The notes under the pieces: generated by a model
The model's database searches: none
What the model was told of the DNA's origin: nothing
Seen by the model: only the letters and a program-made list of their open reading frames with translations
Assembly (NCBI GenBank): GCA_964349165.1
Contig: CAYGFL010000001.1
Span: forward strand, 1 to 41,334
Origin: an uncultured Candidatus Saccharibacteria bacterium
GTDB lineage: Bacteria > Patescibacteriota > Minisyncoccia > Phycocordibacterales > PALSA-1337
Direction: 5' to 3'
Length of the DNA stretch: 41,334 nucleotides
Position numbers and translations under genes: made by a program
In this document: piece after piece, positions 1-41,334 of the stretch
How the letters are laid out: every line of letters starts with the position of its first letter
Numbering within the stretch: the stretch's first letter is position 1

Positions 1-160
1 CCGGAGAAGTTCCTATCGGGACTATTCCGTTTGCACAGTCATTGTCATCAGGACAACCCTCGCGCCCGATTCGTAAGCGCATCACTCGGCAGGCGCTTCT
101 CAGAAAATCTCGAGAAATCAAATGGCGTGGACCAAAAAAGTGAAAGGAGTCGAACCAATG

Positions 161-205
161 CCCGCACAGTCAGAGAAGATCTGGCACGATGCGGGTTTTC
201 TTTTT
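161..205 (+). terminator. Putative intrinsic terminator ending a stop-codon-free GC-rich segment at the window start
   Basis: Outer stem cccgca (161-166) / tgcggg (190-195) with inner stem caga/tctg, followed by TTTTCTTTTT (196-205). Confidence 0.4.
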
Positions 206-321
206 GTGCGCCCTCAAGGTCTTGGAATATGTAGTGTGACACATGGACTTGGATAGTGTTTGCATTTGAAAATACTTTTCCCGCTGTATATGGCGCAGAT
301 TTTAAAGGTAAATTTTCATAG

Positions 322-348
322 AAAAACCCCGAGGACGAGTCCCCGAGG
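322..348 (-). terminator. Intrinsic terminator downstream of rnc
   Basis: Minus-strand hairpin ccucgggga-cucg-uccucgggg (9 bp including 2 G:U, tetraloop) followed by UUUUU, about 18 nt after the rnc stop codon. Confidence 0.55.
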
Positions 349-365
349 TGTGTGATTGAATTTGG

Positions 366-1049
366 TTAGAATAAAGCCAAGGCTTTTCTAGCCGCGTCAG
401 TCTCAGCATCCTGCTTCGATGTTCCGGTACCTTGTGCAAGAAGTTCTGTGTTGAAATAGACTCCCAGAGTGTACCTTTTGTCATGGTCGGGACCTTCTTC
501 GGCAAGGACGAGATAGGATGGAGCAACTTTGTGTTTCTTTTGCATAACATCCTGCAGTCTGCATTTAGCAGAAAGGAATTCGATCGTTTCGAGCTTTCCT
601 TTGTATTCTGATAAGAGAACGCGATGGACGAATTCTTCGGCTATCGTATACCCACGATCAACATACAAAGCACCAAGTATGGCTTCAAAAGTATCTGCCA
701 GAATAACATCTCGTGCCCGAGACTTTATATCTTTCTTCTCACCTTTTGAAAGAAGCAAGAAAAGTTCGATACCGAGCTTGCGGGCAACCTTGGCCGCCAC
801 TTCGCCGCCCACGATAAGGCTGCGTTTGGCCGTTAATACTCCTTCATCGTCATCTGGGAATGTCGTGAATAAGTATTTGCTTACGATAAGTTCGAGGACC
901 GCGTCACCGAGATACTCGAGTCGTTCGTTGTGTTTAAGTCCGCATCCACAATGTTCGTTGATATACGAACGGTGGGTGAGAGCTTGGCTTAAAAGAGTCT
1001 TGTCCCTGAAGACAACACCGAGTCTATTTTCAAGAATTGAGGTAGCCAT
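366..1049 (-). CDS. rnc: Ribonuclease III
   Basis: 227 aa. RNase III signature LTHRSY...ERLEYLGDAVLELIVSKYLF. C-terminal dsRBD-like segment KRYTLGVYF...GTGTSKQDAETDAARKAL. Confidence 0.93.
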   Translation of the reverse strand: MATSILENRLGVVFRDKTLLSQALTHRSYINEHCGCGLKHNERLEYLGDAVLELIVSKYLFTTFPDDDEGVLTAKRSLIVGGEVAAKVARKLGIELFLLLSKGEKKDIKSRARDVILADTFEAILGALYVDRGYTIAEEFVHRVLLSEYKGKLETIEFLSAKCRLQDVMQKKHKVAPSYLVLAEEGPDHDKRYTLGVYFNTELLAQGTGTSKQDAETDAARKALALF

Positions 1050-1098
1050 ATCTGCACTTTTTCTACCATATCTGACCCCCCACTGTCAAAATTTATAG

Positions 1099-1127
1099 TT
1101 GACCTTCCTTGGTTCTTGCGGTATTCT
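1099..1127 (+). promoter_or_regulatory. Putative sigma-70 type promoter for the DEAH helicase gene
   Basis: TTGACC (1099-1104), 17-nt spacer, TATTCT (1122-1127), about 30 nt upstream of the ATG at 1158. Confidence 0.35.
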
Positions 1128-1157
1128 CTCAGTAGGTTTTTTTTGACCTTTGAATTT

Positions 1158-3287
1158 ATGAACGACCTACCAATACTAGGGGCGGAAGCCCAAATCATGG
1201 GGCTTTTGGCCTCACACTCTGTAATCATCGTATGTGGTGAACCAGGGTCAGGCAAAACAACCCAACTCCCTCTAATGCTGTACCGTCAAAAGTTGGCATT
1301 ACATGGGTATATTGGGATTACACAACCGCGAAGGCTTGCGGCCGTTTCGGTGGCCAAATACGTCGCGGGACAACTAGGGTGCGAAGTGGGTCATACGGTT
1401 GGATACAAAATTCGCTTCGACAGAAATGTTGGGGATGAAACGCGAATCCAATTTATGACCACAGGCATTCTCCTCCGGGAACTTGCGCGAGATCCGTTAC
1501 TTAAGCACTACAAGGTAATTATTGTTGACGAAGCCCATGAACAGCAGATTGAGATTGATTTACTTCTTGGACTTCTCCGCGAAGTTCTGAAGAAGCGTGC
1601 TGATCTCAAGTTGATTGTGGCTTCGGCGACGATGGATACTGACAAGTTCTCCACGTACTTCGGCAAGGCGCCGGTGGTGAATGTCGACGGTCGGACTTTT
1701 CCGATCGAGGTGGAATACCTACAAAAATCACCTGCGGGATATTACGAACTCCTCCAGCAGATCGCCACGAAGGTTCATCATGTTCATCACATGGGTCCTG
1801 AAGGTGACATTCTTATCTTCATGTCTTGCAAAGAGGACATTTACGATTTGATCGAGGAGATTGAAAAATTTCGTATCGACAACCTCCTTGTCCTGCCGCT
1901 TTATGGGGGTATCCAGCCTCAGGAGCAGGAGAAAATCTTTGCTCCGGCTGTGGGAATACGAAAGGTGATCGTGGCGACCAACATTGCCGAGACGTCGCTT
2001 ACCATTCCTGGTGTGACGTGCGTCATCGACAGCGGCCTTGTTAAAGAAAGTCGTTTCGATGTCGAAATTGGCATTGAAAGTTTGGAAGTAATTAAGCATT
2101 CTCAAGCTGGCTGTAATCAGCGGAAGGGAAGAGCTGGGCGCGTCGCGCCCGGCATTTGCTACCGGATGTACAGCGAGAAAGAATTTGCAAAGCGGCCGAA
2201 GTTTACTTCGCCGGAAATGCAGAGGAAAAATCTCGATCCTGTCGTGTTGTATATGGAGACACGGGGACTTCCGAATGTGAATACGTTTGATTTCATCAAC
2301 AAACCGAGCGACCGTGCAGTTAATGATGCGTACCAATCCCTCGGCATCCTGGGCGCTCTGAACGTGATGAATCGTCGTCCTACAATACTTGGTCATAAAA
2401 TGTCCGAGCTTCCACTTCAACCTTATCTAGCACGGCTCGTCTGTGAAAGTGTGGAATATGGTTGTGTGGTCAATATGACCATCATCGCATCCTTTTTGTC
2501 AGCACAAAACATTTTCCTCCGTCCGCGAGGACGCGAAGATGAAGCCGATATGCATCACGCCATCCTTTCCCACCCGGAATCCGATCCCCTCACATTTCTG
2601 AAGATCTGGAGTCTGTATATGGAAAAAGGATGTGACAGGGAATGGTGTAAGGAGTATTTTCTGGACTGGCGTGCACTTGAGGACGTTAAATCCATTGTTG
2701 AGCAGCTATCAGTCCTTCTTCAGAAGAAAAATATTCTGCTAACAAATAACGACAATCCAGCCGTCTTGATGCGCTGCATTGTGTCCGCCTGCACCTACAA
2801 TATTATGGAACGGGTCAAAAGCTCGAACCATTACTCGGGATTATTTAATGCGACGAAGAAGGTGGAAATTCATCCCAATTCTCCGCTCGCAAAGAAAAAG
2901 CCCCGGTTCCTCATCGCCTCGTTCGTGCTCGAAACCTCCCGCGTATATATACATCATTGTACGCAGGTGAAAATCGAATGGCTCCCGGTCATTCTGCCTC
3001 AGCTATTCAAGTGCGGGAAACCAGTTTTGACGTCGTATAAGATTGGCGACAATCATGCGATGGGGGAACAGGAAGTTCTGTATAAAGGGGAAGTGGTTGG
3101 CAAGCGGCCGGTCCGTATCGTGCTCGATGTTGCGAAGCAACTCAATGAAGAGCAAAAGGTTCTTGATTTCGAGAAAGGTACTACGGTAGCTCCGCAACCC
3201 GCGGAGAAGCCGGAACCTGTTCCTGATGTCGTGGATCTTGCAACCTTCGTGGCTAACGCCTGGGGCGCCAAAGTCATTCAAAAATAA
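1158..3287 (+). CDS. DEAH-box ATP-dependent (RNA) helicase, HrpA/HrpB-like
   Basis: Walker A GEPGSGKTTQLP, motif II DEAHE, SAT (IVASATMD), motif VI QRKGRAGR, long HA2/OB-like C-terminal part. The ATG at 1158 is preferred over the TTG at 1116 because the predicted promoter overlaps 1116. Confidence 0.85.
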   Translation: MNDLPILGAEAQIMGLLASHSVIIVCGEPGSGKTTQLPLMLYRQKLALHGYIGITQPRRLAAVSVAKYVAGQLGCEVGHTVGYKIRFDRNVGDETRIQFMTTGILLRELARDPLLKHYKVIIVDEAHEQQIEIDLLLGLLREVLKKRADLKLIVASATMDTDKFSTYFGKAPVVNVDGRTFPIEVEYLQKSPAGYYELLQQIATKVHHVHHMGPEGDILIFMSCKEDIYDLIEEIEKFRIDNLLVLPLYGGIQPQEQEKIFAPAVGIRKVIVATNIAETSLTIPGVTCVIDSGLVKESRFDVEIGIESLEVIKHSQAGCNQRKGRAGRVAPGICYRMYSEKEFAKRPKFTSPEMQRKNLDPVVLYMETRGLPNVNTFDFINKPSDRAVNDAYQSLGILGALNVMNRRPTILGHKMSELPLQPYLARLVCESVEYGCVVNMTIIASFLSAQNIFLRPRGREDEADMHHAILSHPESDPLTFLKIWSLYMEKGCDREWCKEYFLDWRALEDVKSIVEQLSVLLQKKNILLTNNDNPAVLMRCIVSACTYNIMERVKSSNHYSGLFNATKKVEIHPNSPLAKKKPRFLIASFVLETSRVYIHHCTQVKIEWLPVILPQLFKCGKPVLTSYKIGDNHAMGEQEVLYKGEVVGKRPVRIVLDVAKQLNEEQKVLDFEKGTTVAPQPAEKPEPVPDVVDLATFVANAWGAKVIQK

Positions 3288-3337
3288 TTGTTCCATTTTT
3301 TCGCAAGGGGGCTCTGCAGAGGGCCTCTTTTTTGCAT

Positions 3338-3373
3338 AAAAAAACCGGATGGCCACAAGGGCATTCCGGTTTT
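3338..3373. terminator. Bidirectional intrinsic terminator between convergent helicase and sigma genes
   Basis: aaaaaaaccgga-[15 nt]-tccggtttt: stem ccgga/tccgg flanked by an A-run and a T-run, lying between the stop at 3287 (+) and the stop at 3405 (-). Confidence 0.5.
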
Positions 3374-3404
3374 GAAGAATCTAAATTACAGGTAGCGGAA
3401 TCAA

Positions 3405-5345
3405 TTAAGTTTCCACACCTTCGATTTTTTCGCCTTCGGAGTTAATCCGATAGCACGCACGAATTTTTTCAATGTCAGCTTGAATCTCTTCCTTTTGTAA
3501 AAGGACGGACTCGACTCGATTGAACCCTTTCATGGCCATTGCTGGTTTCCGTAAGAGGATTTCACCAACATCAAACCACGATAGGCCACCATCAATTCGT
3601 AGAAGATACATGGCAACGTGCCGTGCCCACACTACCGATGCGTGGTTATGATCTCCTATGAGCAGGTCCGTCGCAAATCCGTAGGCATAGGCGACGGAAT
3701 TCAGGATCTTGTTTAGGAGTTCCAGATCAAGAGGCCTCAAATTTGATCTGGCGAATTCAGGCATTTGTTTTGGCGCCTTATCCAATTTGGTTTCTTCACC
3801 GACGAGATTCTCAAGTTCTCGAATGCGTTGGAGAAGCGTAGGAAGGGTATCGATGGTGAGATCGAAGCCGATCACGTGAAGATTTTGCCAGATCTTGGTA
3901 TTGATCTGACGAATCCGTTCGCGTGTTACGCCTACCGCTTCGCCAAGATCTTGCAATACGAGACCCTCTGGTCCAGTAAGTTCGTTGTAAGCAAGAAATG
4001 CCTGTTTGTCCCGGTCGGAAACATCAAGACCTCGAACGGCGGCGATGAGGACACGAACTTTCTCACTCTCATCATCCAGAATTTCCTGAGCTTCATGCAT
4101 GGAGGATGGGGAGAGGAAGGAATCGCTAGATAATGAGTTCAGGAGTGTTACGTCCTCTCCCTCGCTATTCGCGAATACGACATCCTCGAGAGACGTCGTT
4201 GGGATCTGAAGGCGTTTGAACACCCTTGTCACTTGTTCGACACTCTCGTCGCATTTGGCCGCAATTTCTTCGACGGTTGGTTCCCTGCGGAGCTCGTGAG
4301 CCAGTTCTGCGGCTGTTCCCATTACCTTGTATCGCAACTCCTGGATGTGAACCGGGAATCGAATCAAGTCGTTGTAGGCGATAGCCCGGCCCATGGCCTG
4401 ACGTATCCACCATGTGGCATAAGTGGAAAACTTATTCCCCTTACTCCACTCAAACTTTTCCGCAGCCCGCATGAGGCCAATATTACCCTCCTGAACCAGA
4501 TCATCAAATTCCATCCCCCGAACCCGGCTTTTTTCTCGACGGTGATATTTGGAGGCGATTTTGAGGACCAAGCGAAGGTTGTGAGCGATGAGCTTTTTGT
4601 AGGCCCTGGCATCGTTCTGGTCGATTAGCTTGGCAAGCTCGACTTCTTCTTCTCGGGAGAGAATACGATGCTGGCTCGCAGCCTGGTAGAAAGATCGGGA
4701 GTTGTCACCGGGTTTGGTGCCAGTGAATTCCTCCAATTCCTCCGAAAGCGATGGGTCGCCAACGGATTCATTTTCATCTTCCGCCTCAGGATCTTCTCCA
4801 TCGATTTCATCGATCTCGTCCTCGAGGTCGGCTTCGGGCAAAATTTCTTTCACCCTCGGTATTTCATTCAAGAAATCTTCAGTTTCCGAAAATTCATCAT
4901 TCTCGGTCTTCCTGAATCTTGATTGAAACATTATGGTGCTTGCCTCGCGTCTTTCGTCACGATTCATCGGAATATGCTTACCCTTGTTTGCCTTTGAAGG
5001 CTTGGGTACTGCGTCCGCTACATTTCCTTTTTCAGGAGGTTGAGTTTCGCCTGCATCTTCGACCTTGTGCACATGCGTATGCGTGTGCATATGATTTACA
5101 GTCAAGTTGATCTCGACCTTAACCCTGATGGTCGCCAGAATTTTTGCGAGTTTCTGGAACGATTTGGAAAACTTTGTCCTATCCTTCGAGAGCGAAGGAG
5201 GGAACAAGGCTGATATCTCCTGAGGAGTGATCGTGCCTCTTTTGGAGGCTTCGTGGAGAGCGAGTCGGGCTTCTGGCCTAAGTTCGCAATCCCTGATAAC
5301 TTCGTCGCTTAAAAACGGCGAGATTACCTCATCTGGTATGTTCAT
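3405..5345 (-). CDS. Primary-like sigma-70 factor (regions 1.1, 1.2, 2, 3, 4) with a C-terminal DnaA domain-IV-like extension
   Basis: 646 aa. Acidic linker [23 protein letters not shown]. Region 2: [12 protein letters not shown]...[16 protein letters not shown]...[18 protein letters not shown]. Region 3: [10 protein letters not shown]. Region 4.2: [22 protein letters not shown]. About 156 extra C-terminal aa follow. SD-like GAAGGA lies 6 nt upstream of the ATG. Confidence 0.85.
3450..3731 (-). other. DnaA C-terminal (domain IV, Bac_DnaA_C-like) helix-turn-helix domain encoded at the 3' end of the sigma gene
   Basis: [88 protein letters not shown] aligns by eye to E. coli DnaA [72 protein letters not shown]...IKEDF. 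The RDHTTV motif is not conserved. Confidence 0.6.
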
Positions 5346-5418
5346 AAGTATCCTTCGGGTAAATTGTGGGGGTCAAAATCCGAAAATACTATATAATATT
5401 AAATTTAAATAGTAAATA

Positions 5419-5447
5419 TTGACATCGCTGTAAAACATGACAATATA
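5419..5447 (+). promoter_or_regulatory. Putative promoter of helicase 1 in the AT-rich divergent intergenic region
   Basis: TTGACA (5419-5424), 17-nt spacer, AATATA/TATATC (5442-5449). Confidence 0.35.
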
Positions 5448-5477
5448 TCCTTAGATTTCGCAACTTTAAAACAAAAT

Positions 5478-7481
5478 ATGTACACTCTATACGATTACCA
5501 GGTCGAGTGCCTATCAGCGCTCGAAATGGCTCGCCTCGGGGGCGCAAAAGAGGCACTCATTGTGCTGGCGAGTGGTCTTGGAAAGACCATTGGTACAGCA
5601 TTTGACGTTACTCATTGGCTTCAGACACATGGTGGCAGGGTACTCTATCTTTGCCATCAAAATGAAATTCTCCATCAGTCACAAGGAAAATTTTCGGAGG
5701 TTCTACCTCCACAAACTTCCTACGGTTTCTATCATGGGTTTGAAAAAAGCTCTCAAAAAGTCGACTGCTTATTCGCTTCCTTCCAAACCATGGCCAGACG
5801 ACACGTGCTTTTTAAGCCTGATGAGTTTGACTATGTGGTGGTAGACGAAAGTCATAATTCGGAAGCAATTACCTACGGAAAAGTTCTCGATTATTTCAAA
5901 CCTAAATTCCTTTTGGGTCTCACTGCGACACCCGAACGGATAGACGGATTGGATATTCGAAAACGTTTTGGGCAGCCCGTGTATTATTTGCCTCTTGAGG
6001 AGGCTCTCGCCAGGAATCTTTTGACTCCGGTCGATTATCGCCTCATAAGCAATGAAATCACCTTCGAAAAGCTTAATGTGTTTAACAACCGCGAAGGGCT
6101 CAGCGTTGATGATATCGACGATGAACTCTTTGTTTGTAAGACTGATGTGGAAATTAATACAGCAATCGAAAAAGCCGCATCCGAACTTGCCGATCCTCGC
6201 ACGATGATCTTTGCAAATACCATAGCTCGGGCTGATGAGCTTGCTTTGAGTGTTCCTGGAAGTGTAGTGATACATTCCCAGGTTCGCAAGAAAGAACGCG
6301 ACGTACAGCTCGAACTATTTCGAACCGGACTCGTCAAAACCGCCATAGTAGTCGACTGTTTTAACGAAGGAGTCGATGTACCGGAAGCGAACTTGCTCGT
6401 TTTCCTTCGTTCTACCCTCTCCGCCCGAATCTTTTTCCAACAGTTGGGAAGGGGTCTACGGAAATGCGAAGGGAAAGATAAAGTCATTGTCCTCGATTTT
6501 GTCGGGAATTGCGACCGAATCCTCAAGGTGAAAGCCTTGTCCGATTTGGTTGAAAAGTCCCGCAAAAAGCTTGAAGAAAAGCTGGATAATATTCCACGGG
6601 TGACCTTCACTTTTGATAACAAGATTGGTGAAGTTATCGACCTTGTTAAGAAAGCAAAACCGCCGCGGATTGCCGATTGTCCAGAACTTGTCACTGAGTA
6701 CTCACCTCGCAACAGCCGTCCTGCCTCTGAAGCGTCTGTAAAGATGACTGGAAAGTTGTGGTGGAAATGTGCGAAATGTGGCTATGAGTACCTGCGAACA
6801 ATAAGGGAGAGGCATTTAGGGCATGGGTGCCAGAAATGCGCAGAGGCAGTCACCGAATATAACAACCTTGTGGTCATGTATCCTTACTTAACCCAAGAAT
6901 ATTCAAGCATAAATCCTGTTCCTGCTTCGCAAACCAGATGTGTGAGTAAGGAATTGGTTTTGTGGAGTTGTCGGGAATGTAAGTATGAGTGGAAGGGGAG
7001 ACCATATTCGCGGACGCAAAGGGGAGATAATTGTCCCCAATGTTCTCGACTAATTAGTTTCTATCGGGATAATTTTGCCTTCCATCACCCCGACCTTCTT
7101 GAAGAGTATTCTTACATCAATCGGATGGCGCCGGAGAAATTCAGTCGCCGCTCGAATGTCCTTCGATGGTGGATTTGTAAGACATGCAATTCGGGTTGGC
7201 AAGCTACAGCTCGCGCGCGAGCAGACGGCAAAGCCGGATGCCCAAATGGATGTTCCTCTGTTTCCGCAGAAAAACAGACCATCGTTCTCTCCGCTCCTCA
7301 TCTTGCTGGACAGTATTCAGCAAGTAATGCAAAGCCTATTGAGGCTATAACTCCAACTTCTGATGAAATAGTCAGATGGTTCTGCGAGGATTGCGGGAGA
7401 TATTGGAGAGCTTCAGCGCGACAGCGTATGAATGGTCTCCAGTGTCCACAGTGCCATCCCGTCGTACCAGCCGTACTTTAA
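5478..7481 (+). CDS. SF2 helicase (ResIII/DEAD-like core) with four C-terminal treble-clef zinc-ribbon repeats
   Basis: 667 aa. ASGLGKT (aa 31-37), VVDESH (121-126), LGLTATPER, VVDCFNEGVDVP (291-302), QQLGRGLR. C-terminal aa 401-660 hold 4 Cys4 units. Confidence 0.85.
   Translation: MYTLYDYQVECLSALEMARLGGAKEALIVLASGLGKTIGTAFDVTHWLQTHGGRVLYLCHQNEILHQSQGKFSEVLPPQTSYGFYHGFEKSSQKVDCLFASFQTMARRHVLFKPDEFDYVVVDESHNSEAITYGKVLDYFKPKFLLGLTATPERIDGLDIRKRFGQPVYYLPLEEALARNLLTPVDYRLISNEITFEKLNVFNNREGLSVDDIDDELFVCKTDVEINTAIEKAASELADPRTMIFANTIARADELALSVPGSVVIHSQVRKKERDVQLELFRTGLVKTAIVVDCFNEGVDVPEANLLVFLRSTLSARIFFQQLGRGLRKCEGKDKVIVLDFVGNCDRILKVKALSDLVEKSRKKLEEKLDNIPRVTFTFDNKIGEVIDLVKKAKPPRIADCPELVTEYSPRNSRPASEASVKMTGKLWWKCAKCGYEYLRTIRERHLGHGCQKCAEAVTEYNNLVVMYPYLTQEYSSINPVPASQTRCVSKELVLWSCRECKYEWKGRPYSRTQRGDNCPQCSRLISFYRDNFAFHHPDLLEEYSYINRMAPEKFSRRSNVLRWWICKTCNSGWQATARARADGKAGCPNGCSSVSAEKQTIVLSAPHLAGQYSASNAKPIEAITPTSDEIVRWFCEDCGRYWRASARQRMNGLQCPQCHPVVPAVL
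6678..7457 (+). repeat. Protein-level array of 4 zinc-ribbon units (DUF4379/PF14311-like) in helicase 1
   Basis: The four units are: LVTEYSPRNS...LWWKCAKCGYEY...GHGCQKCAE; LTQEYSSINP...VLWSCRECKYEW...GDNCPQCSR; LLEEYSYINR...LRWWICKTCNSGW...KAGCPNGCS; LAGQYSASNA...VRWFCEDCGRYW...GLQCPQCH. Confidence 0.7.
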
Positions 7482-7511
7482 TCATCGTGAGTGTCAATTT
7501 TCTACACAATT

Positions 7512-7544
7512 CCCGCGTTCTCACAAGGACGCGGGTTTTCTTTT
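7512..7544 (+). terminator. Intrinsic terminator between the two helicase paralogs
   Basis: cccgcgt-tctcacaagg-acgcggg (7-bp GC-rich stem) followed by TTTTCTTTT. Confidence 0.65.
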
Positions 7545-7614
7545 GACATAAGTATTGATTTATGCTAGAAGTAAGACAGATTTTTTCGGTGAACTTTAAC
7601 AAAAAGGAACCTCA

Positions 7615-9627
7615 GTGATAACCCCACATTGGTACCAATCGGATTGTCTTAGGGCTATCCGGAGGGCGCGAGAAAAGGGCGCGAAAGAAGCCTTAATTGT
7701 CATGGCGAGCGGTCTCGGTAAAACGGTGACTGTTGCTCATGATGTTCTCGAGTTCAGGAAGAAAAATCCTAAAGCTCGAGTCCTTTTCCTTTGTGACAAG
7801 ATGGAAACTCTCCGTCAGGTCCGTACCACGTTCGAAGTTGTGAATGGTTCAGACCAGACTTACAGCTTTTATCTTGGAAAGAAAAAGGACGCCAAACTTC
7901 CGCAATTTGTTTTTGCAATGCTTCAGACAATGAGGAATAATTGCAAAAAGTTTGCGCCGAATGAGTTCGATTACGTCGCTGTAGACGAAAGTCATCATGC
8001 ATGTGCCGAGACTTATCTCGATGTGGTTCAGTATTGGAAACCGAAGTTCCTTCTTGGGATGACGGCGACCCCTGACCGCACAGATGGACAGGATATTTGC
8101 AAAGTCTTTGGGCGACCAGTGTTCTACCTGCCGATCGAGGAAGCGCTTGCTCAGGATCTGCTTACGTCGGTCGATTATCACATCCTAACCGATGAGATTA
8201 AATTACCTACATCTTCCCAACTGCATCTGGGAAGGTTAAAGCTCAGAAAGCTTAACAAACAGATCTTTATGCCCAAGAGGGATGAAGAGATCACTCGAAT
8301 CATCTCGAGGTATATTCGAGAAGTGCAAAATCCTCGCATGATAGTTTTTTGCGAGTCGGTTGAGCACTCTAACAATATGGCAAAATTTATCCCAAACGCT
8401 TTGCCATATCACTCGAAAATCTCTGCAGAGGAACGAACTGTCCGTTTGGGAATGTTCCAAAGCGGTCTAATTCCAACTCTTCTTGTTGTAGATTGCTTTA
8501 ACGAGGGAGTCGATGTTCCGCCAGCAAACGTTCTTGTTTTCTTGCGGTCAACATCTTCTCCAATCATCTTTCTTCAGCAACTTGGACGCGGTCTGCGCAT
8601 ATGTGAAGGGAAAGAGAAAGTGCTCGTACTCGACTTTGTTGCCAATTGTGAACGGATCAAAACTGTTTACGATCTCTGGCAGGAAGTTAAGGTAAAACGA
8701 GAGCGATTTCTTACTCGTAAACCCAGAGCCGTTCGTCATCAAGGTGTTCGGTATCCAGGGAAACCTCGCGAGCCATTCGTTGTGGATGGCGGTCAGGCCA
8801 ATTTTCATGAGAAAGTCGTCAGACTCATGGATATTGTCCGTCGGATTACTGATGGCTATAGCAAGGAAGAGGCGCTCCAATCTCTCATGGATTTCGCAAG
8901 CAAACTCGGCAGGTCACCGACTCAGCTTGAGGTGCATCACAACAGTGATATGCCAAGCCTTAGTTTCTATAAAAAGAACTTCGGTACATTCAGCGAGACA
9001 CTTGTGGCGGCAGGGCTTATACCTAATCGCTTCGATGAAGTTTCCAAAGACGAACTCCTTGATCAGCTCAGGAAACTCACCGACGAGTTACAGCACGCCC
9101 CTTCGCAAGACGAGGTTGCTGCAGCTTCGACTGCTGGGAAGTGTTCTTCAGAACCAGTTTTTAGAAAGCATTTCGAGTCATTGAATAATGCTATCGAAAA
9201 AATTGGCCATATTCCAGACCGACGTGTCGGAATGAGTAAAGAGGAACTTTGCGAACAGTTACGCAAACTGCATAAAAAATTGGGTCGTATCCCTGGCGTC
9301 GAAGATTTGAAAGAATCTTCGGCAGCAAGGGAAACAGCCAGTTATACTGCTTTTCGTGTCCGATTCAAATCTTGGCAGCGTGCCTTAAAAGCCGCTGGTC
9401 TGATTGATAAGGCAGTGGAAACCAAGAACTATTCAGACACCGATCTGATCCAATCCCTACAGAAGGCAAAAAAACTGCTGGGTAAAACGCCGACTACTGT
9501 AGATATTGAAAAACTACGGAAGGCAGGCAAAATTTGCAGCGCAAGTGTAATCGTCTATTACCATCATTTCGACGGAGGTTGGGCCAATGTGCTCAAAGCC
9601 GCCGGAATTGAGGAAGACATTCACTAA
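7615..9627 (+). CDS. SF2 helicase paralog (ResIII/DEAD-like core) with four C-terminal homing-endonuclease-associated (HEAR-like) helical repeats
   Basis: 670 aa, GTG start. ASGLGKT (31-37), VAVDESH (121-127), LGMTATPDR, VVDCFNEGVDVP (291-302), QQLGRGLR, all colinear with helicase 1. C-terminal aa 415-664 hold 4 helical units. Confidence 0.85.
   Translation: MITPHWYQSDCLRAIRRAREKGAKEALIVMASGLGKTVTVAHDVLEFRKKNPKARVLFLCDKMETLRQVRTTFEVVNGSDQTYSFYLGKKKDAKLPQFVFAMLQTMRNNCKKFAPNEFDYVAVDESHHACAETYLDVVQYWKPKFLLGMTATPDRTDGQDICKVFGRPVFYLPIEEALAQDLLTSVDYHILTDEIKLPTSSQLHLGRLKLRKLNKQIFMPKRDEEITRIISRYIREVQNPRMIVFCESVEHSNNMAKFIPNALPYHSKISAEERTVRLGMFQSGLIPTLLVVDCFNEGVDVPPANVLVFLRSTSSPIIFLQQLGRGLRICEGKEKVLVLDFVANCERIKTVYDLWQEVKVKRERFLTRKPRAVRHQGVRYPGKPREPFVVDGGQANFHEKVVRLMDIVRRITDGYSKEEALQSLMDFASKLGRSPTQLEVHHNSDMPSLSFYKKNFGTFSETLVAAGLIPNRFDEVSKDELLDQLRKLTDELQHAPSQDEVAAASTAGKCSSEPVFRKHFESLNNAIEKIGHIPDRRVGMSKEELCEQLRKLHKKLGRIPGVEDLKESSAARETASYTAFRVRFKSWQRALKAAGLIDKAVETKNYSDTDLIQSLQKAKKLLGKTPTTVDIEKLRKAGKICSASVIVYYHHFDGGWANVLKAAGIEEDIH
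8857..9606 (+). repeat. Protein-level array of 4 HEAR-like (PF18780-like) repeats in helicase 2
   Basis: The four units are: SKEEALQSLMDFASKLGRSPT...FYKKNFGTFSETLVAAGL; SKDELLDQLRKLTDELQHAPS...FRKHFESLNNAIEKIGH; SKEELCEQLRKLHKKLGRIPG...FRVRFKSWQRALKAAGL; SDTDLIQSLQKAKKLLGKTPT...YYHHFDGGWANVLKAAGI. Confidence 0.65.
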
Positions 9628-40971: not shown

Positions 40972-41000
40972 TTGACTTTATTTATCTAGCTTGCTAGTAT
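40972..41000 (+). promoter_or_regulatory. Putative promoter upstream of tuf
   Basis: TTGACT (40972-40977), 17-nt spacer, TAGTAT (40995-41000). Confidence 0.4.
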
Positions 41001-41134
41001 AGCTATTACGCAGTTTTCTTGCGTTGGTGTTTAGTTATTATCCACACTTTATTTATTAACATAATTTATCTTTGGTTTTGCGAGATATGAACTCTTCACG
41101 CTCGTATCTAGCGAAGTCAAAGCACTAAAATCAT

Positions 41135-41334
41135 ATGGCAGCAGAATTTAATCGTTCAAAACCGCATGTTAACGTAGGTACTATCGGTCACGTCGACCAT
41201 GGTAAGACTACTCTTACCACATCTATCCTCGCTGTGCAGGCAAAAGATGGTCTTGCTCAAATCAAGGCTTATTCTGATATTGCAAAAGGAGGAACTGTTC
41301 GAGACGCAACAAAAGTCGTTACTATTTCTCTTGC
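41135..41334 (+). CDS. tuf: Elongation factor Tu, 5' partial (runs off the window)
   Basis: [28 protein letters not shown]... G1 motif GHVDHGKT. Confidence 0.9.

What the first reader, a model, noticed from the sequence alone, without database searches (positions are those of the whole stretch)
3405..5345. Primary-like sigma-70 factor fused to a DnaA domain-IV-like DNA-binding domain
The ORF has all hallmarks of a group-1 sigma: a region 1.1-like N-terminus, an acidic linker, region 1.2, [24 protein letters not shown] and VTRERIRQI. Instead of ending after region 4.2 it continues for about 156 aa.

Residues encoded by 3450..3731 align by eye with the DnaA C-terminal HTH. The shared pattern is DLL...V.AR..AMYL.R......L..+G......-helix-...I..DIEKI. 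The DnaA-box-contacting RDHTTV motif is replaced by RKPAMAM.

A housekeeping-type sigma with a second, independent sequence-reading domain would add a third promoter-recognition element, or tether holoenzyme to DnaA-box-like sites. A perfect TTATCCACA occurs at 41046-41054 in the tuf leader and could serve as a first test site. The N-terminal part also contains an unusual HMHTHTHVH tract. I do not know of a described sigma/DnaA-C fusion.
Basis: partly seen in the sequence, partly recalled or inferred. Interest (0 to 1): 0.7.

Follow-up and report, generated by a model that had tools for sequence, protein, structure and literature searches.

The report
Sigma factor fused to DnaA-type domain
A bacterium of the ultra-small Patescibacteria group encodes a transcription-initiation (sigma) factor with a genuine, strongly conserved copy of the DNA-binding domain of the replication initiator DnaA fused to its end; it belongs to a sizeable, apparently undescribed protein family, but this copy has lost the residues that read DnaA boxes.

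Summary
ORF 3405..5345(-) encodes a 646-aa sigma-70 factor with regions 1.2-4.2, followed by a conserved linker helix and a 93-aa module.

The module is a DnaA domain IV homolog:
- Pfam PF08299 scores 30.7 bits, just under the 31.5 cutoff.
- A profile of the family's modules hits only DnaA chains in the PDB (E down to 5e-15).
- The AlphaFold tail model superposes on DnaA-DBD structures (TM 0.91, rmsd 1.2 A).

It is not an artefact. The same ORF is in three assemblies, an 80 %-identical ortholog is collinear, and module dN/dS is 0.05.

It is not unique. At least 46 clusters, with named members from Patescibacteria, carry a sigma core plus 1-4 such modules. I found no paper describing them.

The functional reading is only partly supported. 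All DnaA-box-contacting residues are replaced (R399N, P423F, D433K, H434P, T435A, H439K) and the basic loop is gone. DnaA boxes are not enriched. The single TTATCCACA is at 41038-41046 in the tuf 5'-UTR.

My best guess is an extra contact just upstream of -35, with a target that is not a DnaA box. A protein-binding role (as in HdaB) is a serious rival. Whether this is the housekeeping sigma is unresolved.

The parts
3405..5345 (-). Complete ORF, 646 aa: sigma-70 family factor with a C-terminal DnaA-domain-IV-like module
   Evidence: An identical protein (P0001) is present in ENA and Logan assemblies.
5388..5416 (-). Likely promoter of the sigma gene: TTTACT - 17 nt - TATAGT. It sits back to back with a TTGACA -35 hexamer for the divergent helicase gene.
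   Evidence: Consensus scan, 9 of 12 matches. The sequence is conserved in the ortholog locus L003 and recognisable in L006. Promoter function is inferred, not shown.
5097..5345 (-). N-terminal helical domain (residues 1-83), region 1.1-like
   Evidence: AF2 pLDDT 93-97. Conserved across the subfamily (alignment A3). hhalign to the N-termini of ordinary sigmas gives probability 44 %, E=2e-4, so the assignment is weak.
5067..5093 (-). HMHTHTHVH tract (residues 85-93), alternating histidines
   Evidence: H85, H87, H89 and H91 are invariant in five subfamily members. P0138 has HQHVHTHI. AF2 confidence is low here. Function unknown; metal binding is a guess.
4701..5066 (-). Acidic, disordered spacer (residues 94-215; residues 84-215 have net charge -22)
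   Evidence: It is the fastest-evolving part of the protein (67 % aa identity to the ortholog).
4371..4700 (-). Sigma regions 1.2 and 2 (residues 216-325), including YATWWIRQ
   Evidence: Pfam Sigma70_r1_2 and Sigma70_r2. Foldseek matches SigA and SigmaS chains.
4134..4352 (-). Sigma region 3 (residues 332-404), including IRFPVHIQE
   Evidence: Pfam Sigma70_r3, E=6.5e-8.
3870..4109 (-). Sigma region 4 (residues 413-492), including VTRERIRQI
   Evidence: Pfam Sigma70_r4. AF2 helices 413-438, 444-453, 464-471 and 475-492.
3726..3869 (-). Family-specific linker (residues 493-540). It has a conserved helix (AF2 helix 500-515, within the [20 protein letters not shown] segment at residues 499-518, nt 3792-3851), followed by a disordered stretch of about 25 aa.
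   Evidence: G493, V515 and G516 are invariant in alignment A1. AF2 pLDDT is 91-96 for the helix. dN/dS is 0.15.
3447..3725 (-). DnaA-domain-IV-fold HTH module (residues 541-633). The basic-loop equivalent is GDHNHAS (nt 3636-3656). The recognition-helix start is RKPAMAM (nt 3531-3551).
   Evidence: fold and homology; contact residues replaced; dN/dS 0.054.
3328..3372 (-). Intrinsic terminator of the sigma gene (hairpin followed by U7)
   Evidence: RNA fold -14.7 kcal/mol, z=-2.9. Conserved in L003.
5478..7481 (+). Divergently transcribed SF2 helicase (ResIII + Helicase_C + 4 DUF4379 zinc-ribbon repeats). It is the conserved partner gene of the sigma gene.
   Evidence: Pfam. The same divergent pairing is seen in 6 of 7 family loci.
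7615..9627 (+). Second SF2 helicase (ResIII + Helicase_C + 4 HNH_repeat modules), conserved next to the first
   Evidence: Pfam. Synteny in the window/L001, L004/L005 and L008. In L003 the corresponding gene is cut at the contig end and carries no Pfam call.
1116..3287 (+). HrpA-like DEAH/HA2/OB helicase, convergent with the sigma gene
   Evidence: TIGR01967, 576 bits against a cutoff of 723. Nearby in the window/L001, L002, L003, L006 and L008. A rare protein, P0158, fuses such a helicase to an alpha-CTD, a sigma core and two DnaA_C modules.

Best explanation
The gene encodes a functional sigma-70-family initiation factor of a Patescibacteria (CPR) bacterium. The core (regions 1.2-4.2) keeps the residues that read canonical -10 and -35 hexamers. 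It is extended by a conserved linker helix, a flexible stretch of about 25 residues, and one helix-turn-helix module with the DnaA domain IV fold. It is the minimal member of a previously undescribed family in which sigma region 4 is followed by one to four such modules, sometimes together with a second region 4.

Proposed mechanism: region 4.2 sits on the -35 hexamer as usual. The tethered module makes an additional contact just upstream of -35, in the zone normally used by alpha-CTDs or class I activators, so that it acts as a built-in accessory promoter reader.

In this particular protein the DnaA-box-specifying residues and the basic loop have been replaced. The target therefore cannot be a DnaA box. 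It is either a different or less specific DNA feature read by the remodelled recognition helix (K601, K607, N610, R611), or no longer DNA at all.

Shown: the architecture, the fold, the homology, purifying selection, the existence of the family, and the loss of the DnaA-box contacts. Inferred: DNA binding, its position relative to -35, and any effect on transcription.
For: Architecture and homology:
- Pfam and NCBIfam hits.
- A profile of the family's modules hits only DnaA chains in the PDB.
- The AF2 tail model has pLDDT 92-97 over the module and superposes on DNA-bound DnaA-DBD structures: 3pvp TM 0.91 / 1.2 A, 1j1v TM 0.85 / 1.4 A.

Real and selected:
- The identical ORF occurs in ENA and Logan assemblies.
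- The ortholog in a third sample is collinear with no indels.
- dN/dS is 0.054 for the module against 0.095 for the sigma core.
- The gene has its own terminator straight after the stop codon.

Family:
- An exhaustive HMMER search found 46 representatives (of 50 %-identity clusters) with a sigma core followed by one or more modules among the top 150 hits.
- P0003, P0004 and P0006 exceed the Pfam cutoff for PF08299 at 157, 109 and 56 bits.

Support for a DNA-reading role at family level:
- 28 of 46 proximal modules keep the Arg-399 equivalent, 19 keep [DN]H[TS][TS], and 16 keep both.
- Several members add a second sigma region 4, another DNA-reading HTH.
- One member also carries an RNAP alpha-CTD.

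Support for ordinary promoter reading by the core:
- [16 protein letters not shown] and PVHxxE are conserved.
- Sigma-70-type hexamers lie upstream of the sigma gene and of tuf.
Against: No DNA-binding data exist for any member.

In the window protein the basic loop SKRRSRS has become GDHNHAS, and R399, P423, D433, H434, T435 and H439 are all replaced. The module's net charge is about 0 to -1, against +2 to +4 for the three DnaA reference domains (E. coli, B. subtilis, A. aeolicus) and -5 to +7 for the other sigma-fused proximal modules. This pattern resembles HdaB, a domain-IV-like protein that lacks Arg-399 and works through protein contacts (PMC7049699).

No shared element upstream of -35 emerged from about 20 upstream regions or from 3.4 kb of intergenic DNA, although power was very low.

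Even in L004, whose sigma keeps the DHTT signature, the 22-kb locus holds no DnaA-box-like site with up to one mismatch (0 found vs 3 +/- 1.5 expected).

Inter-domain geometry is not predicted with confidence (pTM 0.39).
Confidence: 0.45

Rival explanations
1. The module no longer binds DNA. It has been repurposed as a protein-interaction or regulatory domain. It might recruit a partner such as DnaA, an Hda-like protein or one of the syntenic helicases to the holoenzyme, or it might fold back on region 4 as an autoinhibitory or anti-sigma-like element.
For: All DnaA-box contact residues and the basic loop are lost, and the net charge is about 0 to -1. HdaB is a precedent: it is domain-IV-like, lacks Arg-399 and binds HdaA (PMC7049699). 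Synteny with SF2 helicases is tight and conserved in 6 of 7 loci. A rare protein fuses a helicase to such a sigma (P0158). Strong purifying selection fits this reading as well as it fits DNA binding.
Against: The HTH geometry is intact and superposes on DNA-bound DnaA-DBD at 1.2 A. The recognition helix still carries K601, K607, N610 and R611, and the near-universal Arg-407 equivalent is kept. Sister members keep canonical DNA-reading residues, so a DNA-related ancestral role is likely. No partner has been identified, and the Leu-422 equivalent that matters for the Hda contact is Trp here.
Confidence: 0.3
2. One reading: the module recognises DnaA-box-like 9-mers (TTATCCACA). It thereby adds a DnaA-box promoter element or tethers the holoenzyme to DnaA-box clusters or oriC, coupling transcription to replication initiation.
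For: The domain is homologous to DnaA domain IV. Sixteen of 46 sigma-fused proximal modules in other genomes keep both the Arg-399 equivalent and the DHTT-type signature, so the model may apply to those members. One perfect TTATCCACA is present in the window.
Against: For this protein, R399N, P423F, D433K, H434P, T435A and H439K remove every base-specific contact known from the E. coli DnaA-DNA structure (residue roles from established knowledge of PDB 1J1V). Boxes with up to one mismatch number 14 against 11 +/- 3.6 expected. The single perfect box lies in the tuf 5'-UTR, downstream of the promoter. L004, whose sigma keeps DHTT, has none in 22 kb.
Confidence: 0.07
3. The protein is not the housekeeping sigma. 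It is an alternative sigma with a small dedicated regulon, for example the adjacent helicase genes, and an ordinary RpoD exists elsewhere in the genome. This concerns its role, not the function of the tail, so it is compatible with either reading of the module.
For: The core fails every NCBIfam RpoD equivalog cutoff: 185 vs 572 bits and 171 vs 354 bits. It is about 40 % identical to ordinary primary sigmas, which share about 63 % with each other, and those include CPR examples (WWE3, Kerfeldbacteria). The position equivalent to E. coli T440 in region 2.4 is variable in the family (G here) but invariant T in the ordinary set. The gene is locked in a divergent pair with a helicase gene.
Against: It has a region 1.1-like N-domain and an acidic spacer typical of group 1 sigmas. 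The -35 and extended -10 reading residues are conserved. JGI's pipeline labels one member a primary sigma. Patescibacteria genomes are small and evolve fast. No second sigma gene lies in the 41-kb window.
Confidence: 0.4
4. The ORF is an artefactual fusion of two genes caused by an assembly or frameshift error, or it is the sigma component of an MZA-type anti-phage system.
For: The best NCBIfam and PADLOC hit by score is MzaA, and helicase genes flank the sigma gene.
Against: The same ORF is present in three independent assemblies and in a collinear ortholog under purifying selection, and in 46 or more family clusters. The MzaA hits cover only the generic sigma core (186 bits vs a cutoff of 800). 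No other Mza component or nuclease domain was found. The surrounding genes are housekeeping: RNase III, RuvA, Fpg, a Mur ligase, tRNAs and tuf.
Confidence: 0.02

Closest known systems
Group 1/2 sigma-70 factors (RpoD/SigA, RpoS)
   Same: Regions 1.2, 2, 3 and 4 are all present, as are the conserved motifs YATWWIRQ, PVHxxE and TRERIRQ. There is an acidic N-terminal spacer and a region 1.1-like domain. The AF2 core matches SigA and SigmaS chains from initiation complexes.
   Different: About 156 extra residues follow region 4.2: a conserved helix and a DnaA-IV module. The core is much more divergent (about 40 % identity) and falls below every NCBIfam RpoD and RpoS cutoff. A His tract is inserted after the N-domain.
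DnaA domain IV (Bac_DnaA_C, PF08299; PDB 1J1V, 3PVP)
   Same: The same fold (TM 0.85-0.91, rmsd 1.2-1.4 A) and detectable sequence homology. The Arg-407 equivalent and the hydrophobic core are conserved.
   Different: There are no DnaA domains I-III. The basic loop and all DnaA-box-reading residues are replaced, and the module's net charge is about neutral. The module is fused to a sigma factor instead of an AAA+ initiator.
HdaB of Alphaproteobacteria (PMC7049699)
   Same: A DnaA-domain-IV-like module outside DnaA that lacks Arg-399. It shows that this fold can act through protein contacts rather than DnaA-box binding.
   Different: HdaB is a small stand-alone protein that targets HdaA/RIDA in Alphaproteobacteria. 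Here the module is covalently attached to a sigma factor in Patescibacteria, the Leu-422 equivalent is Trp, and no Hda partner is known.
Sigma factors with C-terminal extensions (for example ECF41/ECF42-type ECF sigmas and SigI-type factors; from my own knowledge, not tested here)
   Same: The general principle: an extra domain follows or replaces region 4 and modulates sigma activity or promoter recognition.
   Different: Those are group 4 or SigI-type factors, and their extensions (SnoaL-like, TPR, SigI-C) are not DnaA-type HTH modules. The present protein is a full-length factor with regions 1.2-4, and its extension is a recognised dsDNA-binding fold.
RNAP alpha-CTD / UP-element recognition and class I activators (functional analogy only)
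   Same: A flexibly tethered small DNA-binding domain able to contact DNA just upstream of -35. One family member (P0158) literally carries an alpha-CTD ahead of the sigma core.
   Different: The fold is different and the domain is attached to a different subunit. There is no evidence yet that the module binds upstream DNA.

Membership tests
Sigma-70 family | Regions 2 and 4 (and region 3 for groups 1-3) detected above curated thresholds | tested here: met
   PF04542 scores 69.4 bits (cutoff 24), PF04539 33.0 (25.3) and PF04545 25.2 (24.1).
Primary (group 1) sigma, RpoD/SigA | Score above the RpoD equivalog cutoffs | tested here: not met
   PRK09210 scores 185 against 572, TIGR02393 171 against 354 and PRK05658 157 against 555.
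Primary (group 1) sigma, RpoD/SigA | Region 1.1 present | tested here: inconclusive
   No PF03979 hit, even at E<=10. hhalign of the N-domain against ordinary sigma N-termini gives probability 44 %, E=2e-4, at the right position. AF2 predicts a confident small helical domain.
Primary (group 1) sigma, RpoD/SigA | The essential, principal sigma of the genome (sole factor of RpoD type) | not testable with these tools
   Only 41 kb of an 84.5-kb contig is visible. Two scans of the genome collection did not recover the lineage.
DnaA domain IV (Bac_DnaA_C, PF08299) | Score above the Pfam gathering threshold | tested here: inconclusive
   The window protein scores 28.1 bits (tail alone 30.7) against 31.5, just below threshold. 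Homologous modules in family members score 56-157 bits, and the window module aligns to all of them.
DnaA domain IV (Bac_DnaA_C, PF08299) | Domain IV fold (helical bundle with HTH) | tested here: met
   Foldseek gives 3pvp_A TM 0.91 / rmsd 1.2 A and 1j1v_A TM 0.85 / 1.4 A; the top 12 hits are all DnaA. Caveat: the AF2 alignment contained canonical-type modules.
DnaA domain IV (Bac_DnaA_C, PF08299) | DnaA-box-reading residues (Arg-399 in the basic loop; Pro-423, Asp-433, His-434, Thr-435, His-439) | tested here: not met
   The equivalents are N, F, K, P, A and K, and the basic loop SKRRSRS has become GDHNHAS.
DnaA domain IV (Bac_DnaA_C, PF08299) | Binds double-stranded DNA | not testable with these tools
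   Requires EMSA, DAP-seq or a structure of the complex.
DnaA replication initiator | AAA+ domain III (PF00308) and N-terminal domain I | tested here: not met
   No PF00308 or PF11638 hit in the protein. True DnaA proteins recovered in the same search have both.
MzaA (sigma of the MZA anti-phage system) | Full-length match above cutoff, plus neighbouring Mza partner genes | tested here: not met
   NF041931 scores 186 against 800 and covers the sigma core only. PADLOC gives MzaA 116 bits over the core only and no Mza partners among the neighbours.
HdaB | Small stand-alone domain-IV-like protein with Leu-422 kept and Arg-399 lost, acting on HdaA | tested here: not met
   The module is fused rather than stand-alone, and the Leu-422 equivalent is Trp. 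Arg-399 is lost, as in HdaB (PMC7049699). The resemblance is functional only.

The most novel reading that the evidence does not exclude
In a clade of Patescibacteria the principal sigma factor carries DnaA-domain-IV readers, so that promoter selection is hard-wired to DnaA-box-like or derived upstream elements, or to oriC. Transcription initiation and the replication initiator's DNA code would then be physically coupled. More broadly, DnaA domain IV would have been exapted in this phylum as a modular DNA-reading unit. It is found as single tails on sigma factors, as stand-alone one- or two-module proteins, and as tandem arrays of up to about 11 modules.
Probability: 0.15. Interest if true: 0.85.

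Novelty: new variant of a known kind. Interest (0 to 1): 0.6.

Why it matters
Sigma factors are thought to read promoters through regions 2, 3 and 4 alone. Extra upstream contacts are supplied by the alpha subunit or by separate activators. Here a family of sigmas has one or more additional HTH modules, taken from the replication initiator, welded behind region 4. That would be a new promoter-recognition architecture in a phylum with tiny genomes and few transcription factors, where almost nothing is known experimentally about transcription.

Two tests follow directly. First, do the members with canonical modules read DnaA-box-like elements upstream of -35? Second, what does the remodelled module in this window bind?

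The work also shows that DnaA domain IV is used far outside DnaA in Patescibacteria, in arrays and in stand-alone proteins, which matters for annotating 'DnaA-like' genes in these genomes.

Tried and rejected
1. Assembly or frameshift artefact. Rejected: three assemblies, a collinear ortholog, dN/dS, a terminator after the stop codon, and a large family.

2. DnaA-box targeting by this protein. Rejected on contact residues, on lack of enrichment and on the site's position in the tuf 5'-UTR.

3. Defence-system (MZA) sigma. Rejected.

4. Search for a third promoter element. Crude -35/-10 calls in 20 upstream regions and word enrichment in 3.4 kb of intergenic DNA gave only generic AT-rich words. 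The window has too little power, so this is not evidence of absence.

5. Locating the lineage in named genomes. Two genome-contig scans failed: the N-terminal alignment A3 confirmed no relative, and P0138 returned only an unrelated Eubacteriales sigma. I therefore could not count sigma genes per genome.

6. The search for homologous proteins with alignment A2 returned no hits, although HMMER found 667 hits below 1e-10 with the same profile. I treat this as a limitation of the tool, not as data.

7. A single-sequence phmmer of the tail against the PDB found nothing. Only the family profile reached DnaA.

8. Neighbour-joining tree of the sigma cores: the first attempt timed out, and I replaced it with identity statistics and clustering. 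The fusion cores did not separate cleanly from ordinary sigmas on average linkage, so monophyly of the fusion family is not established.

Full report
OBSERVATION

Pfam places Sigma70_r2 at residues 252-323, r3 at 336-399 and r4 at 454-489, with a weak r1_2 at 223-245. It also reports Bac_DnaA_C (PF08299) at 545-610. That hit scores 28.1 bits in the whole protein and 30.7 bits (E=3e-7) in the last 161 aa alone, against a gathering score of 31.5. NCBIfam's DnaA equivalog TIGR00362 matches the tail at E=4e-10, over model positions 308-434 of 437. The protein runs 156 residues past region 4.2. Nucleotides 3450..3731 encode residues about 539-632, which is the module. One detail is wrong: the perfect TTATCCACA lies at 41038-41046, not 41046-41054.

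IS THE TAIL REALLY A DnaA DOMAIN IV?

A single-sequence search of the PDB with the tail found nothing. The window protein has homologs whose modules are unambiguous: P0003 scores 157 bits for PF08299 (4 modules), P0004 109 bits (3 modules) and P0006 56.5 bits. The window tail aligns to each of those modules. A profile of eleven family modules, with the window's as first sequence, hits six distinct PDB sequences. All six are DnaA (E 5e-15 to 2e-9), and the matches cover essentially the whole of domain IV.

AlphaFold2 folds residues 541-633 as a helical bundle. pLDDT is 93-98 in the full-length model and 92-97 in a tail-only model. In Foldseek the tail model's top 12 PDB hits are all DnaA. One caveat applies: the AF2 alignment contained canonical-type modules, which may help the model towards this fold.

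IS THE FUSION REAL?

The identical protein is called on an 84.5-kb ENA contig and on an independent Logan assembly. An 80 %-identical ortholog (P0002) from a third sample is exactly collinear, 646 aa with no indels. Nei-Gojobori dN/dS between the two genes is 0.054 for the module, 0.148 for the linker and 0.095 for the sigma core; only the last 13 residues are unconstrained. The stop codon is followed by a hairpin and a U7 tract (-14.7 kcal/mol, z=-2.9). The convergent helicase gene has its own terminator. The tail is thus the true, selected C-terminus of a separately terminated gene.

A FAMILY, NOT A ONE-OFF

I ran an exhaustive HMMER search of 1.84 billion representatives with a profile spanning region 4.2, the linker and the module. 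It gave 18,116 hits at E<=1e-3 and 667 at E<=1e-10. I scanned the best 150, plus P0001-P0007, with local HMMs for the sigma core and for the module. Forty-six representatives of 50 %-identity clusters have a sigma core followed by one to four modules, and several of these also carry a second sigma region 4.

The window protein is the minimal form: core, conserved linker helix, one module.

The same search recovered four other kinds of protein:
- true DnaA proteins;
- many small proteins made of one or two stand-alone modules;
- proteins with 8-11 tandem modules, one of them with an IS200-type transposase domain;
- one protein (P0158) that fuses a DEAH/HA2 helicase, an RNAP alpha-CTD, a sigma core and two modules.

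Two members carry NCBI names, and both are 'sigma-70 family RNA polymerase sigma factor [Patescibacteria group bacterium]'. Named relatives of the neighbouring HrpA-like helicase come from Minisyncoccia, Parcubacteria, Doudnabacteria and Patescibacteria. The window itself is ordinary chromosome: RNase III, RuvA, Fpg, a Mur ligase, PilM, glycogen genes, seven tRNAs and tuf. Six full-text literature searches found no description of a sigma/DnaA-domain-IV fusion.

WHAT THE MODULE CAN AND CANNOT DO

I mapped the modules onto E. coli DnaA numbering through the 1J1V alignment. The residues K397, R398, R399, R401, R407, Q408, L422, P423, R432, D433, H434, T435, T436, H439, R442 and K443 correspond in the window protein to D, H, N, A, R, H, W, F, gap, K, P, A, M, K, N and R.

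From established knowledge of the 1J1V complex, Arg-399 makes the minor-groove contact, and Pro-423, Asp-433, His-434, Thr-435 and His-439 make the base-specific major-groove contacts. Every one of these is replaced. The basic loop SKRRSRS has become GDHNHAS, and the module's net charge is about 0 to -1. Recognition of a DnaA box by this protein is therefore very unlikely.

The sequence data agree. Boxes with up to one mismatch number 14 against 11 +/- 3.6 expected. The one perfect box is about what chance predicts. It also lies about 40 nt downstream of a good TTGACT-17-TAGTAT promoter, in the tuf 5'-UTR, which is not where a region-4-tethered domain would reach.

At the family level the picture differs. 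Of the 46 proximal modules, 28 keep the Arg-399 equivalent, 19 keep a [DN]H[TS][TS] signature and 16 keep both. P0138, a 644-aa single-module member, reads GGRDHTT. The ancestral fusion probably carried a working DnaA-type reader, and the window's lineage has remodelled it.

Even so, the 22-kb locus around P0138 contains no E. coli-type box with up to one mismatch (0 found vs 3 +/- 1.5 expected). DnaA-box reading is thus unproven even for the canonical members.

THE SIGMA CORE

The motifs that read -35 (VTRERIRQ) and the extended -10 (PVHxxE), and the aromatic melting residues (YATWWIRQ), are present. The AF2 core matches SigA and SigmaS chains from initiation complexes. Canonical-looking promoters precede the sigma gene (TTTACT-17-TATAGT at 5416-5388, conserved in the ortholog) and tuf.

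The core is nevertheless not a typical RpoD:
- It fails all NCBIfam RpoD and RpoS cutoffs.
- It is about 40 % identical to ordinary primary sigmas, which share about 63 % among themselves; that ordinary set includes CPR examples.
- The family's cores are only about 36 % identical to each other.
- The residue equivalent to E. coli T440 in region 2.4 is Gly here and varies across the family.
- The conserved N-terminal domain resembles region 1.1 only weakly (hhalign probability 44 %, E=2e-4).

I could not determine whether the genome has another sigma.

GENOMIC CONTEXT

In six of seven family loci the sigma gene is divergently paired with an SF2 helicase carrying DUF4379 zinc-ribbon repeats. A second SF2 helicase with HNH_repeat modules lies beyond the first in three loci (the window/L001, L004/L005 and L008). 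RNase III and an HrpA-like DEAH helicase lie downstream in most loci. The most distant locus examined (L010) lacks this arrangement. PADLOC and NCBIfam see only generic motor-domain similarity in the helicases and no Mza partners, so a defence-island reading is not supported.

MECHANISM

The best-supported reading is as follows. The protein is a functional sigma whose core reads ordinary hexamers. Its tethered HTH, attached through a conserved helix and a flexible stretch of about 25 aa, adds a contact near or upstream of -35, in the manner of a built-in alpha-CTD or class I activator. In this protein the target is not a DnaA box.

I put about 0.95 on the architecture, homology and selection claims, and about 0.45 on the upstream-DNA-contact mechanism.

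The main rival (about 0.3) is that the remodelled module now mediates a protein contact or autoregulation. The precedent is HdaB, a domain-IV-like protein that lacks Arg-399 and binds HdaA (PMC7049699). Separately, I put about 0.4 on the protein being an alternative rather than the housekeeping sigma.

VERDICT

The fusion is real, selected and structurally confirmed. It represents an apparently undescribed family of sigma factors in Patescibacteria. I class it as a new variant of a known kind, with interest 0.6. The specific DnaA-box idea is not supported for this copy.

Noticed in passing
window 5067-5093 (-), residues 85-93; also P0002-P0005 and P0138: An alternating-histidine tract (HMHTHTHVH) directly follows the N-terminal domain. 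Four His positions are invariant across the subfamily, and a similar HQHVHTHI occurs in the more distant P0138. AF2 does not structure it. It may be a metal-binding switch next to the region 1.1-like domain.
   Followed up: partly
window 5478-7481 (+) and 7615-9627 (+); L003, L004, L005, L006, L008, L009: The conserved neighbours are paralogous SF2 helicases whose C-termini carry arrays of small repeats: four DUF4379 zinc ribbons in one and four HNH_repeat modules in the other. The DUF4379 helicase is the divergent partner of the sigma gene in 6 of 7 loci; the HNH_repeat helicase lies beyond it in the window, L004/L005 and L008. This suggests a functional unit of sigma and helicases sharing a bidirectional promoter region.
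   Followed up: partly
P0158 (1383 aa, Logan contig of 8.6 kb): A single polypeptide combines a DEAH/HA2 helicase, an RNA_pol_A_CTD, sigma regions 2-4 and two DnaA_C modules. No other helicase-sigma fusion appears among the top 120 homologs of the window's HrpA-like helicase, so it is rare and could be an assembly artefact.
   Followed up: partly
P0125 (1680 aa), P0127-P0129 (about 890 aa), P0139, P0212 and others: DnaA-domain-IV modules occur outside DnaA and outside sigma factors. There are tandem arrays of 8-11 modules, one of them with an N-terminal IS200-type Y1 transposase domain. There are also many 100-260-aa proteins made of one or two modules. Their biology is unknown.
   Followed up: partly
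P0003, P0005, P0006, P0007, P0121, P0122, P0126, P0137: Many longer family members carry a second sigma region 4 (for example LTRERVRQI) after the DnaA-type modules, that is, a duplicated -35-type reader at the C-terminus.
   Followed up: no
window 40972-41046 (+): The tuf gene (ATG at 41136) has a near-consensus promoter, TTGACT-17-TAGTAT, at about 40972-41000. The only perfect TTATCCACA in the window lies in the 5'-UTR at 41038-41046.
   Followed up: yes
window 1-9000 compared with 9000-41334: The block holding RNase III, the HrpA-like helicase, the sigma gene and the two SF2 helicases has a higher G+C content (0.44-0.50) than the rest of the window (mostly 0.37-0.44).
   Followed up: no
L004 984-5522: The DNA polymerase III alpha gene near the P0138 sigma locus contains an intein with a LAGLIDADG endonuclease domain (Pfam list).
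   Followed up: no
L010 6756-7814 (-): In the most distant family locus examined, the divergent neighbour of the sigma-DnaA_C gene is not a helicase. It is a 352-aa protein with Sigma70_r4 and a faint HARE-HTH hit.
   Followed up: no
window 3300-3372: Two convergent intrinsic terminators sit back to back between the HrpA-like helicase gene and the sigma gene, one on each strand.
   Followed up: yes
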